A stretch of 64,000 nt of DNA, taken from NCBI GenBank assembly GCA_045638265.1, contig JAZUBA010000050.1, positions 41,983 through 105,982 of the forward strand. The letters run 5' to 3'. The notes beneath the pieces are model-generated. The model was not told the DNA's origin. It did not search any database and saw only the letters and a list, made by a program, of their open reading frames with translations. The DNA is from Alphaproteobacteria bacterium. Its GTDB lineage: Bacteria; Pseudomonadota; Alphaproteobacteria; CAAHEQ01; UBA3637. This document shows, one piece after another, positions 33,470 to 33,824 of the stretch. Both the position numbers and the translations under genes were made by a program. The number at the start of each line of letters is the position of its first letter. Position 1 is the stretch's first letter.

Positions 33470-33515
33470 ATAAGCTCCTTATGTTGAAAATAAATCTGTA
33501 ACCATTGTAACAAAA

Positions 33516-33659
33516 GGTACGTTTAATTGCAACGATTTCGCCTATAAGCACAAAAATTGGAGAACATAAGGAAATATCACAAACAAGCCAATGTTTGCAA
33601 ATCACAAAAATTAAAAAAAATGCATAAAAACAAAAAAAAGTTGTTGCAATTAAACGTAC
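33516..33659. repeat. IR-bounded element A (putative invertible promoter switch or MITE-like) upstream of gene A
   Basis: Perfect 17-bp inverted repeats ggtacgtttaattgcaac (33516-33533) / gttgcaattaaacgtac (33643-33659); internal segment homologous to elements B, C, D. Confidence 0.7.
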
Positions 33660-33824
33660 GTTTATCTGCAATATGGATAAACTGATTTTATTAAGAAATG
33701 TTAATCTGAATAGAGCTTTTTGATATAAAAAAATACAGAAACAAACATAATCGCTCCATGACAAATAGAGGAAGTATTCGTCCATCAGCTTACATGACTT
33801 GTATCGTTATGAGATTGTTTTATG

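What the first reader, a model, noticed from the sequence alone, without database searches (positions are those of the whole stretch)
33470..33700. IR-bounded ~140-bp elements upstream of four paralogous genes occur in opposite internal orientations
Elements A (33516-33659), B (41779-41930), C (53374-53511) and D (56523-56668) are each bounded by ~18-bp inverted repeats (consensus about GKACGTTTAWWTGCAAC ... GTTGCAAWTAAACGWMC). Each lies 35-60 bp upstream of one member of the TadE-like cysteine-rich gene family. Relative to the downstream gene, A and D carry the internal motif gcgaaatc next to the gene-proximal IR, while B and C carry its complement (gatttcgc) next to the gene-distal IR. The sequence outside the IRs (leader ttttgttacaat..., RBS) is in the same orientation at A, C and D. 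So only the segment between the IRs is flipped, which is what recombinase-mediated inversion between inverted repeats produces (as in fim, hin and Bacteroides invertible promoters). Element D contains a plausible sigma70 promoter (TTGATT-N16/17-TTATAT) facing the gene in the A/D orientation. Such a switch would place expression of this surface-protein family under phase-variable ON/OFF control.
Basis: seen in the sequence. Interest (0 to 1): 0.92.

Follow-up and report, generated by a model that had tools for sequence, protein, structure and literature searches.

The report
Mpi-type invertible switches before pilin-adhesin genes
Four short DNA segments upstream of four related pilus-adhesin genes are flip-flop switches of the type that gut Bacteroides use for their capsules, here in an uncultured gut alphaproteobacterium; they probably let single cells vary which adhesin is strongly expressed.

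Summary
Four ~170-bp elements (A, B, C, D) lie upstream of four paralogous genes. Their ~105-115-bp interiors are homologous, but B and C are flipped relative to A and D, while the flanks keep their orientation.

Each boundary is a ~30-bp quasi-palindromic site, GTTGCAAwTAAAsG-NN-CsTTTAwwTGCAA. The centre TAAACGTACGTTTA also occurs in inverted repeats of Bacteroides invertible regions. The window encodes an Mpi-family serine invertase at 640-1236 (NCBIfam NF009949, 302 bits against a cutoff of 272).

Two metagenome contigs of one related strain share 13.2 kb with one mismatch. They carry the C-locus segment in opposite orientations, diverging immediately after the repeat. Inversion therefore happens in nature.

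A TTGCAA-N17-TACAAT promoter spans the gene-proximal site at all four loci. Flipping exchanges only what lies upstream of the -35. In B and C that is an A-tract block laid out as in four of the six tRNA promoters. In A and D it is GCGAAATC. I infer B (locked) and C are high and A and D are low.

The genes encode type IVb-pilin-like proteins with C-type-lectin-like ends, not TadE.

This is a known mechanism in a new host with a new target family and an unusual promoter layout. Effects on expression are untested.

The parts
640..1236 (+). Candidate invertase: 198-aa small serine recombinase of the Mpi family, acting in trans. It lies 32 kb from the nearest switch.
   Evidence: NCBIfam NF009949 'master DNA invertase Mpi family serine-type recombinase': E 1.9e-90, 302 bits, cutoff 272. 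Pfam Resolvase E 2e-32. Best solved relative is Gin invertase 4m6f, E 1e-12. Contains the serine-recombinase motif YIRVSTDKQ. It is the only recombinase among the ~67 ORFs scanned.
33504..33533 (.). Switch A, gene-proximal site: outer half 33504-33517, core TA 33518-33519, inner half 33520-33533. On the minus strand it also carries the promoter: -35 TTGCAA 33532-33527, -10 TACAAT 33509-33504.
   Evidence: (D4). The promoter scan gives TTGCAA-17-TACAAT preceded by TG.
33534..33642 (-). Switch A, invertible interior (109 bp). GCGAAATC faces gene A and the A-tract block (33603-33642) faces away. Predicted low/OFF state.
33643..33672 (.). Switch A, gene-distal site: GTTGCAATTAAACG-TA-CGTTTATCTGCAAT.
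   Evidence: The centre TAAACGTACGTTTA is identical to that of a B. fragilis 638R inverton repeat.
31658..33469 (-). Gene A, 603 aa: pilin-like N-terminus, Thr-rich linker, Cys-rich region, C-type-lectin-like end.
41767..41796 (.). Switch B, gene-distal site (intact): GTTACAGATAAACG-TA-CGTTTATGTGCAAC.
41797..41912 (+). Switch B, interior (116 bp). It is 94% identical to A's interior but flipped relative to its gene. The A-tract block (41873-41912) abuts the -35.
41913..41942 (+). Switch B, decayed gene-proximal site that keeps a promoter: TTGCAA (41914-41919), 17 bp, TATAAT (41937-41942). B is probably locked in the high state.
   Evidence: The same state is seen in strain L049. Strains L054 and L055 carry an intact switch in the opposite orientation at this locus.
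41998..43188 (+). Gene B, 396 aa: type IVb-pilin-like protein with a C-type-lectin-like C-terminal domain.
   Evidence: AlphaFold model with mean pLDDT 82 and helix 12-62. Foldseek top hits are the ETEC type IVb pilus, TcpA and CofA; lectin-like receptors match the C-terminus.
53362..53391 (.). Switch C, gene-proximal site: ATTGTAACAAAAGG-GT-CGTTTATTTGCAAC. On the minus strand: -35 TTGCAA 53390-53385, -10 TACAAT 53367-53362.
53392..53493 (-). Switch C, interior (102 bp). The A-tract block (53392-53430, read on the minus strand) abuts the -35. Predicted high/ON state.
   Evidence: This is the locus seen in both orientations in L022 and L023.
53494..53523 (.). Switch C, gene-distal site: GTTGCAAATAAACG-AC-CCTTTATTTGCCTT. 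Its core matches the proximal core (GT/AC).
52153..53313 (-). Gene C, 386 aa from the ATG at 53313.
56511..56540 (.). Switch D, gene-distal site: AAGGCATATTAAGG-TA-CGTTAAATTGCAAC.
56541..56650 (+). Switch D, interior (110 bp). The T-rich block (56541-56580) is distal and GCGAAATC is proximal. Predicted low/OFF state.
56651..56680 (+). Switch D, gene-proximal site: GTTGCACATAAAGG-TA-CCTTTAATTACAAT. It carries -35 TTGCAC and -10 TACAAT (56675-56680).
56719..58350 (+). Gene D, 543 aa: pilin-like N-terminus followed by teneurin-type EGF repeats.
   Evidence: Pfam EGF_TEN E 6e-25.

Best explanation
The four elements are Mpi-type DNA inversion switches (invertons). Each controls one paralogue of a type IVb-pilin-like adhesin family.

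Anatomy.
- Each switch is a 102-116-bp segment between two ~30-bp recombination sites in inverted orientation.
- Each site has two 14-bp half-sites (consensus GTTGCAAWTAAASG) around a 2-bp centre.
- The distance between the two centres is 132-146 bp (132-140 bp in the three intact switches).

Recombination.
- A small serine invertase would bind each site as a dimer, cut at the central dinucleotide and exchange the inner halves, flipping the segment. This step follows from what is established for serine recombinases.
- The central dinucleotide must match between the two sites of a switch. It does in every intact switch.
- The likely enzyme is the Mpi-family protein encoded at 640-1236, working in trans on dispersed targets as Mpi does in Bacteroides fragilis.

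Expression.
- The promoter straddles the gene-proximal site. The -35 (TTGCAA) is in the inner half-site and the -10 (TACAAT or TATAAT) is in the outer half-site.
- Both orientations therefore rebuild the core promoter.
- Inversion changes what lies just upstream of the -35. In one orientation it is an A8-TGCA-A5-A8 block placed like an UP element, as in this genome's tRNA promoters. In the other it is the GC-richer GCGAAATC end.
- Predicted states in this assembly: B (locked) and C high; A and D low.

My confidence, step by step:
- the segments invert in nature by site-specific recombination: about 0.9;
- the Mpi-family enzyme in the window does it: about 0.7;
- the A-tract-proximal orientation is the high-expression state: about 0.55.
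For: Inversion.
- The interiors are homologous, and opposite orientations sit between flanks that keep their orientation.
- L022 and L023 are the same strain (13,218 bp, one mismatch). They show both orientations at the C locus and diverge immediately after the 21-nt repeat. L023's last 33 nt match the reverse complement of window 53461-53493 at 33/33.
- The syntenic B locus is intact and in the A/D orientation in L054 and L055, but flipped and decayed in the window and in L049.

Site architecture.
- Every boundary has two half-sites (D4, 77, 92).
- The centre dinucleotide matches within each intact switch: TA/TA in A, D, L021, L022-1 and L054-B; AC/AC in C; TC/TC in L024-2, where the neighbouring positions differ.

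Enzyme.
- NF009949 hit above its curated cutoff.
- NCBI names ~70%-identical proteins in Alphaproteobacteria MAGs as Mpi family.
- Bacteroides inverton repeats listed in the supplement of PMC10939037 contain TAAACGTACGTTTA or AAACGTTCGT. One adjoins a upxY capsule gene and one is in a PSA primer. Their total lengths of 161-233 bp are comparable to ours.
- Mpi is described as a serine recombinase that inverts 13 dispersed regions (PMC4747536; PMC5903667).

Promoter.
- The scan calls TTGCAA-17-TACAAT or TATAAT toward the gene at A, B and C, each preceded by TG. At D it calls the 1-nt-shifted TGCACA-16-TACAAT, without TG.
- Every gene-proximal outer half-site reads TA(C/T)AAT. No distal outer half-site does.
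- The layout A>=6, N1-4, -35, N16-18, -10 occurs 7 times in the window: before four tRNA genes, at switches B and C, and at one other place. About 1.7 are expected.
- Three decayed, locked switches all keep the A-tract next to the -35 (window B, L022 second gene, L024 first gene). One of them has lost the rest of the interior.
Against: - No expression data, and no read-level evidence from the source strain itself.
- The recombinase is 32 kb from the nearest switch, and only 64 kb of the genome is visible. Another recombinase could be responsible.
- In L049 the C-locus switch sits in the A/D orientation with mismatched centres (AC against TA) next to an intact gene. That does not fit a rule that locked means A-tract-proximal.
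- A weak internal promoter-like site (TTGAAA-16-GATATT with TG) points toward the GCGAAATC end in B, with an 8-of-12 version in A.
- The A-tracts could instead serve DNA bending for synapsis across only ~135 bp.
- Flipped pairs at the B locus, and at the C locus between the window and L049, also differ in leader or gene, so they are not clean flips. Only the L022/L023 pair is.
- L023 shows only 33 nt beyond the repeat.
Confidence: 0.7

Rival explanations
1. A classical inverton: a complete promoter lies inside the invertible segment and fires through the GCGAAATC end. A and D would then be ON and B and C OFF.
For: This is how fimS, hin and the Bacteroides capsule switches work (general knowledge). 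B has an internal TTGAAA-16-GATATT with TG pointing toward the GCGAAATC end, and A has a weaker copy. A -10-like GATATT, GATTAT or CATAGT sits at a similar alignment position in most elements. In L049 the C-locus gene is intact behind a switch in this orientation.
Against: No internal -35/-10 pair is conserved across the diverged elements. The conserved features are instead the A-tract block and the site-spanning promoter. Locked, decayed switches retain the A-tract plus the -35 and -10, and one has lost the internal region altogether. Proximal outer half-sites are systematically TA(C/T)AAT.
Confidence: 0.25
2. The switches invert, but a different recombinase encoded outside the window does it. 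The Mpi-family gene would belong to an unrelated mobile element.
For: Only 64 kb is visible. The gene lies among unannotated ORFs, Fic and ankyrin genes, and is followed by a relic second HTH tail. That suggests a mobile or rearranged region. Mpi-family genes also occur on plasmids and beside restriction-modification genes.
Against: The sites have the two-half-site geometry, with matched central dinucleotides, expected for a small serine recombinase. Their centre is the same as in Bacteroides capsule invertons, which are Mpi targets. No tyrosine recombinase was found in the window.
Confidence: 0.2
3. The A-tract block is not a transcriptional UP-like module. It is intrinsically bent DNA, or an accessory-protein site, needed to synapse two sites only ~135 bp apart. 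Orientation would affect expression by another route or not at all.
For: 132-140 bp between crossover points is very short for looping. The A-tract block is the most conserved part of the interior. An invariant TTGGC in the middle of the segment is unexplained.
Against: The A-tract sits 1-4 nt from the -35, exactly as in four tRNA promoters. Locked switches that no longer need to synapse keep it. The two roles are not exclusive.
Confidence: 0.3
4. The elements are miniature transposable elements (MITE-like, with terminal inverted repeats) inserted in either orientation, or relics of ancient inversions, with no ongoing switching.
For: The size and terminal repeats resemble MITEs. B and two elements in related contigs are decayed.
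Against: In every sequence examined, copies occur only upstream of this gene family. The sequence outside the repeats is itself a half-site. Two contigs that differ by one mismatch in 13.2 kb differ in orientation at one locus, diverging immediately after the repeat. Neither a genome scan nor a metagenome scan found dispersed copies.
Confidence: 0.03
5. The orientation difference between L022 and L023 is an assembly artefact, or the product of RecA-dependent recombination between the short repeats.
For: L023 ends 34 nt beyond the repeat, so only a short stretch documents the flip. I saw no reads.
Against: The perfect repeat is only 21 nt, shorter than the k-mers usually used by assemblers (an inference; I have no assembly parameters). 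The junction therefore needs real reads. The 33-nt tail is an exact reverse-complement match. Repeats of 15-21 nt are poor RecA substrates (general knowledge). The sites also have recombinase-site architecture.
Confidence: 0.04

Closest known systems
Bacteroides fragilis Mpi and its invertible capsule-promoter regions
   Same: The recombinase belongs to the same family at NCBIfam equivalog level. One enzyme serves several dispersed small invertible regions upstream of surface-structure genes. The site centre AAACG-TW-CGTTT is the same, and total lengths are similar, 161-233 bp against ~169 bp here.
   Different: The host is an alphaproteobacterium rather than Bacteroidota. The targets are pilin-like adhesin paralogues rather than polysaccharide loci. 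There is no UpxY/UpxZ layer. Here the sigma70-type core promoter spans the crossover site and only an A-tract block is flipped. In Bacteroides the promoter is described as lying inside the segment (PMC12632263). The half-site arms differ beyond the central ~6 nt.
Salmonella Hin/hix, phage Mu Gin/gix and the other Fis-dependent serine invertases
   Same: Small serine recombinase of ~190-200 aa. Gin is the best solved relative. Sites are two imperfect half-sites around a 2-bp crossover dinucleotide (general knowledge).
   Different: Hin and Gin act in cis on a ~1-3 kb segment that contains or adjoins the invertase gene and a Fis-bound enhancer. Here the segments are ~135 bp, the gene is 32 kb or more away, and no enhancer is identified. 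Similarity to Gin is weak (E 1e-12).
Mycoplasma penetrans mpl (P35 family) invertible promoters
   Same: Several paralogous surface-protein genes each have their own ~135-bp invertible element bounded by short inverted repeats, giving combinatorial ON/OFF patterns. This is recalled from Horino et al. 2003 and was not checked here.
   Different: From memory, tyrosine recombinases are involved there and the promoter is inside the element. The organism and the gene family are unrelated.
R64 and Salmonella Typhi shufflon (Rci) acting on pilV
   Same: DNA inversion diversifies the adhesin-bearing minor pilin of a type IVb pilus (recalled, not checked here). Gene B's model resembles type IVb pilins.
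   Different: The shufflon swaps C-terminal coding segments with a tyrosine recombinase. Here whole paralogous genes appear to be switched at the transcription level by a serine-type system.
E. coli fimS (FimB/FimE)
   Same: A short invertible element upstream of a pilus gene gives phase variation.
   Different: fimS uses tyrosine recombinases encoded next to the switch. It is 314 bp and carries the whole promoter. It is a single locus.

Membership tests
Mpi-family master DNA invertase (NCBIfam NF009949) | Protein scores above the curated equivalog cutoff of the family model | tested here: met
   302 bits against a cutoff of 272, E 1.9e-90, model positions 1-194 of 203.
Mpi-family master DNA invertase (NCBIfam NF009949) | Small serine recombinase: N-terminal resolvase catalytic domain with the active-site serine, plus a C-terminal DNA-binding tail | tested here: met
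   Pfam Resolvase covers residues 2-143. The motif YIRVSTDKQ is present. The protein aligns to Gin over residues 1-190. The C-terminal HTH was not separately detected by Pfam.
Mpi-family master DNA invertase (NCBIfam NF009949) | Acts in trans on several dispersed invertible regions | not testable with these tools
   Four candidate targets lie 32-56 kb from the gene.
Mpi-type invertible regions (Bacteroides capsule-promoter invertons) | Inverted repeats containing the centre A-R-A-C-G-T-W-C-G-T | tested here: met
   The A-distal and B-distal sites read TAAACGTACGTTTA. Other sites read AAGGTACGTT or AAGGTACCTT. Bacteroides repeats in the PMC10939037 supplement read ...TTTTTAAACGTACGTTTA...CAAAAAACGTTCGT and ...AGACGTTCGTTTA. 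The written consensus ARACGTWCGT is from my memory of the 2003-2004 papers and could not be checked. Switch C (AAACGACCC) departs from it.
Mpi-type invertible regions (Bacteroides capsule-promoter invertons) | The segment is found in both orientations at one locus | tested here: met
   L022 against L023 at the C locus. This pair is from a related strain, not the source strain.
Mpi-type invertible regions (Bacteroides capsule-promoter invertons) | The invertible segment contains the promoter for the downstream genes | tested here: not met
   The only promoter-like site conserved at all loci spans the proximal site. Its -10 lies outside the segment. This rests on sequence alone.
Hin/Gin/Cin enhancer-dependent invertases | Invertase gene within or next to the invertible segment, with a Fis-bound enhancer in cis | tested here: not met
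   The gene is 32 kb from the nearest switch. The segments are ~135 bp with no room for the gene. The enhancer was not testable.
Type IV pilins (class III signal peptide proteins) | N-terminal G|xxxxE prepilin motif followed by a long hydrophobic alpha-helix and a beta-sheet head | tested here: inconclusive
   All four share GRSMTEMLGVLAVIGVL, with E at +5 after G. The Pfam N_methyl hit is below threshold, at E 0.053. The model has helix 12-62 plus a sheet. The best Foldseek hits are type IVb pilins at E 7e-4 to 1e-2. No prepilin peptidase or pilus machinery is in the window.
   No TadE match was returned by the Pfam or NCBIfam scans of the four proteins.

The most novel reading that the evidence does not exclude
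The flipped segment carries no promoter at all. The crossover lies inside the promoter spacer, so both orientations rebuild the same -35 and -10. What is toggled is only an UP-element-like A-tract module copied from the layout of the organism's stable-RNA promoters. That would be an 'UP-element inverton' giving high/low rather than on/off control.

In addition, different central dinucleotides (TA, AC, TC) would act as addresses. Neighbouring switches such as C and D, 3 kb apart and inverted relative to each other, could then not recombine with one another.

Mpi-family genes about 70% identical are annotated in other Alphaproteobacteria MAGs. Whether those genomes carry similar switches is unknown.
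Probability: 0.4. Interest if true: 0.72.

Novelty: new variant of a known kind. Interest (0 to 1): 0.6.

Why it matters
Site-specific inversion switches are well studied in a few cultured bacteria. This would extend the Bacteroides Mpi paradigm, in which one trans-acting serine invertase serves many small switches, to an uncultured low-GC alphaproteobacterium.

That organism carries eukaryote-like genes (serpin, ankyrin, Fic, EGF and C-type-lectin-like domains). The switches would control a family of pilin-adhesin fusions that probably mediate attachment to a host or partner cell.

The system also offers a compact, sequence-defined test case for two general questions:
- whether an inversion can regulate by moving only an upstream promoter module, while the crossover sits within the promoter spacer;
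- whether central-dinucleotide differences insulate closely spaced switches from each other.

In practice, such elements break metagenome assemblies and cause orientation-dependent misannotation. In L054 the caller gave gene B a start codon inside the switch.

Tried and rejected
**Searches that led nowhere**
- Genome-collection scan for the element marker GCGAAATCGTTGCANNTAAA: 19 single hits in unrelated genomes. I judged these to be chance, so the source genome and its relatives appear to be absent from that collection.
- Metagenome scan with TGCAAC-N90-120-AAATCGTTGCANNTAAA: 24 hits. On inspection none had the palindromic sites.
- Exact-protein look-ups for genes A and D, the Fic gene, P0002, P0005 and the 94-aa ORF were not on record. 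I therefore could not examine the A and D loci in further strains. All 12 look-ups are used.
- The written Mpi repeat consensus could not be verified. The 2003 and 2004 PNAS papers and the Johnson review are not held. I used repeat sequences from the PMC10939037 supplement instead.
- A search for AACGTWCGTT around a Prevotella plasmid-borne Mpi-family gene found nothing. This is uninformative.

**Ideas considered and rejected or left open**
- MITE insertion and assembly artefact are treated under the rival explanations.
- Exchange of whole cassettes between loci by site-specific recombination, to explain why A and B interiors are 94% identical. This would need excision of 8 kb. Gene conversion seems likelier, but the question is unresolved.
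- A fifth element at 40090-40210: only one half-site plus AT-rich similarity (71% over 68 nt). I treat it as a possible relic, not as a part.
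Full report
**1. What is in the sequence**

I oriented each by its downstream gene and aligned only the sequence strictly between the inner repeats.
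- A and D align in the same orientation: 79/108 identical, score 85, against a shuffle maximum of 46.
- B and C align in the same orientation: 66/89 identical.
- Every A/D against B/C pair aligns only after reverse-complementing one partner. A-B gives 101/107 identical. Scores are 41-177 against shuffle maxima of 11-16.

The flanks do not flip.
- The gene-side leader (..TTTTGTTACAAT..) is shared by A and C; D has the variant TTTAATTACAAT.
- The far-side flanks of C and D are 90% identical over 84 nt (I3).

The centre motif AASGTACSTT occurs five times in 64 kb, only at element boundaries, where 0.18 are expected.

**2. Anatomy of the boundaries**

- Every boundary is a ~30-bp quasi-palindrome: a 14-bp half-site (consensus GTTGCAAWTAAASG), two central bases, and a second, more degenerate half-site.
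- The A-distal site, for example, reads GTTGCAATTAAACG-TA-CGTTTATCTGCAAT.
- The centre-to-centre distance is 139 bp in A, 146 in B, 132 in C and 140 in D.

The central dinucleotide is the same in both sites of every intact switch I could examine.
- TA/TA in A, D, L021, L022-1 and L054-B.
- AC/AC in C.
- TC/TC in a switch on L024, where the bases either side of the centre differ between the two sites.

From established knowledge of Hin, Gin and the resolvases, this is the geometry expected for a small serine recombinase, which cuts with a 2-bp stagger at the centre of a dimer-bound site.

B's gene-proximal site is decayed (ATTGCAAACAAACA-CA-GCTTCTGCTATAAT), so B is probably fixed.

**3. The enzyme**

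I scanned about 67 ORFs of the window. The only recombinase is a 198-aa protein at 640-1236.
- It matches NCBIfam NF009949, 'master DNA invertase Mpi family serine-type recombinase', at 302 bits against a curated cutoff of 272.
- Its nearest solved relative is the Gin invertase.
- More than 8,000 database proteins are related. Those about 70% identical and named by NCBI come from Alphaproteobacteria MAGs and carry the same family name.

Mpi of Bacteroides fragilis is described as a serine recombinase that inverts 13 dispersed regions, seven of them capsule promoters (PMC4747536; PMC5903667).

I could not retrieve the original papers to check the repeat consensus I remembered. However, a supplementary table of PMC10939037 lists repeats of Bacteroides invertible regions.
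- Examples are ATGTGTTTTTAAACGTACGTTTA, TGTTTCAAAAAACGTTCGT and TTTTAGACGTTCGTTTA.
- The last lies next to a upxY capsule gene.
- The regions are 161-233 bp long.

The 14-nt centre TAAACGTACGTTTA is identical to the A-distal and B-distal sites here. The recombinase family, the site centre and the segment size therefore all agree with the Mpi system. That this particular protein flips these particular sites is still an inference.

**4. Does it flip in nature?**

The gene family has many relatives in metagenome assemblies. I fetched syntenic contigs from these.

*Decisive pair.* L022 and L023 come from two different samples.
- They are identical over 13,218 bp apart from one mismatch.
- Both run through the gene-proximal site of the C-locus switch and then diverge.
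- L022 continues with the T-rich end, as in the window.
- L023 continues with GATTTCGCACCTAAACCGCCTTATTCCACCATT. This is an exact 33/33 match to the reverse complement of window 53461-53493, the other end of the segment.
- L023 stops there, which is typical of an assembly breaking at a heterogeneous inversion.

The difference is present.

*Weaker but consistent evidence.*
- The syntenic B locus carries an intact switch in the A/D orientation in L054 and L055, but a flipped, decayed one in the window and in L049.
- The C locus of L049 is flipped relative to the window.
- In both of these comparisons the leader or the gene also differs, so gene conversion among paralogues is involved as well.
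- The A-locus orthologue L021 has the window's orientation. Of its nine differences, four fall within the 30 half-site positions (Fisher p = 0.002), and these reproduce the variants of switch D. I cannot explain this.

**5. How it probably regulates**

The same promoter-like site is instead found at all four loci, pointing at the gene and spanning the gene-proximal recombination site. Its -35, TTGCAA, is in the inner half-site. Seventeen base pairs downstream, its -10, TACAAT or TATAAT, is in the outer half-site. At A, B and C it is preceded by TG; at D the scan calls the 1-nt-shifted TGCACA-16-TACAAT.

Across ten elements from the window and related contigs, every gene-proximal outer half-site reads TA(C/T)AAT and no distal one does. 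That asymmetry argues the -10 is under selection.

Because the two inner half-sites are near-identical, both orientations rebuild this core promoter. Inversion changes what lies immediately upstream.
- In B and C it is a conserved A-tract block (A8-TGCA-A5-N-A8) ending 2-3 nt from the -35.
- In A and D it is GCGAAATC.

Four of the six tRNA genes in the window have the same A-tract/-35/-10 layout. A regular-expression search for it finds seven sites: those four, switches B and C, and one other. About 1.7 are expected. From memory of the work of Ross, Estrem and Gourse, A-tracts at -38 to -46 act as the proximal UP-element subsite and can raise transcription many-fold.

Three decayed, evidently locked switches all retain the A-tract next to the promoter: window B, the second gene on L022, and the first gene on L024. 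One of them has lost the rest of the interior.

I therefore favour this reading: A-tract proximal means high, so B (locked) and C are high and A and D are low in this assembly. My confidence is about 0.55.

Points against it:
- a weak internal promoter-like site pointing the other way in A and B;
- the L049 C-locus case;
- the possibility that the A-tracts serve DNA bending for synapsis over only ~135 bp.

**6. What is being switched**

The four proteins share a prepilin-like N-terminus, G|RSMTEMLGVLAVIGVL with Glu at +5.
- No TadE match was returned by the Pfam and NCBIfam scans, and the N_methyl hit is weak.
- An AlphaFold model of gene B has mean pLDDT 82, a 50-residue N-terminal helix and a sheet domain.
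- The model resembles type IVb pilins (ETEC CofA, TcpA) most closely. Its C-terminal domain resembles C-type-lectin-like receptors.
- Gene D has teneurin-type EGF repeats instead.

These look like alternative adhesin-bearing pilins.

The genome context points to a host-associated alphaproteobacterium.
- The window has 34% GC.
- It carries DUF2497, a Tim44-like gene, AddAB-like helicase-nuclease genes (my reading of the PDDEXK and UvrD-helicase hits), a serpin, ankyrin and Fic genes.
- Related contigs come from samples whose names suggest ruminant gut surveys. That is my reading of the names and is not verified.

**7. Comparison and novelty**

In mechanism and by membership tests this is an Mpi-type inversion system. 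The protein-family test, the site centre and the two-orientation test are met.

It differs from the described Bacteroides system in three ways:
- the host phylum;
- the target family;
- on sequence evidence, the promoter layout, since the defining feature 'promoter inside the segment' is not met.

It works like the multi-gene promoter inversions of Mycoplasma penetrans. Its outcome resembles the R64 shufflon, which varies a type IVb pilus adhesin. Both comparisons are recalled, not checked.

I found no paper describing such switches in Alphaproteobacteria in the searchable library. That is weak evidence of absence.

I rate it a new variant of a known kind, with interest 0.6. The phenomenon is real and well defined, but its class is familiar and the expression model is untested.

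Noticed in passing
window 1251-1322: Just after the stop codon of the Mpi-family gene there is a second short reading frame, AQIARLLGVDKLTLYRFLKHLES*. It looks like the C-terminal HTH tail of another resolvase/invertase (weak Pfam HTH hit, E 0.007). It may be a relic of a replaced or rearranged recombinase 3' end.
   Followed up: partly
window 41473-41510 and 41674-41711 (poly-C 41680-41692): The 3' end of tRNA-Met is duplicated ~200 bp downstream, as an att-like remnant, just upstream of switch B. The copy carries a C-run whose length differs between the window, L049 and L054.
   Followed up: no
window 33659-33685; L054 5737-5763: The far-side flank of switch A (ATATGGATAAACTGATTT..) matches the 5' leader of the B-locus gene in strain L054 at 23/24 nt. 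Switch A may once have sat between two divergent target genes and toggled between them.
   Followed up: partly
window 33520-33533 and 33643-33656, against L021 3177-3190 and 3300-3313: Between the window and the 96%-identical A-locus orthologue, 4 of 9 differences fall in the two inner half-sites (4/30 against 5/392 positions, Fisher p = 0.002). The variant bases equal those of switch D. The interior is 109/109 identical. This is unexplained; short-patch gene conversion between switches is one possibility.
   Followed up: partly
window 53489-53572 and 56462-56545: The far-side flanks of switches C and D form an 84-nt, 90% inverted repeat. It encloses ~2.9 kb containing tRNA-Val, a Fic gene, an unknown 267-aa ORF and tRNA-His. 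C and D have different central dinucleotides (GT/AC against TA), which would prevent the invertase from flipping the whole 3-kb block.
   Followed up: partly
window 52400-52413 (also L022 12378-12391 and L023 12258-12271): A single half-site-like sequence, GTTGCAATTAAACT, lies inside the coding region of gene C and is conserved in the related strain. There is no partner half-site. It may be chance or a pseudo-site.
   Followed up: no
window 40090-40210: A possible relic of a fifth element lies upstream of the 106-aa ORF 40254-40574. It has one good half-site (CTTGCAATTAAACG at 40196-40209) and an AT-rich stretch 71% complementary to part of switch B.
   Followed up: partly
middle of every internal segment, e.g. 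window 33573-33577, 41836-41840, 53432-53436: A TTGGC pentamer is conserved in ten of the eleven aligned elements, although the surrounding sequence has diverged. Its function is unknown. It could be an accessory-factor site.
   Followed up: no
window 16693-17235 (-): This 180-aa ORF matches Pfam Tad4, a 'Type I Thoeris inhibitor' (E 1e-8, above cutoff). That is an anti-defence family normally associated with phages, here in a chromosomal housekeeping neighbourhood.
   Followed up: no
window 59424-63892 (-): A run of small minus-strand ORFs without Pfam matches carries several internal DNA repeats (families D1, D8, D14 and D18; 79-92% identity). It appears to be a tandemly duplicated family of unknown genes, next to a phage-lysozyme-like gene (58687-59118).
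   Followed up: no
L022 1-400 and L023 1-280: Upstream of the intact switch in the related strain lies a G/T-rich degenerate tandem array, with a unit of roughly 120 bp (GGTGTGAGACGTTGGGATGTAGGATGTGAAGTTGGCGT...). It is unlike the 34% GC surroundings.
   Followed up: no
L054 5650-6993 and L055 1458-2801: In these strains the gene caller extended the B orthologue to 447 aa by starting inside the invertible segment. This shows how such switches cause orientation-dependent misannotation of start codons.
   Followed up: partly
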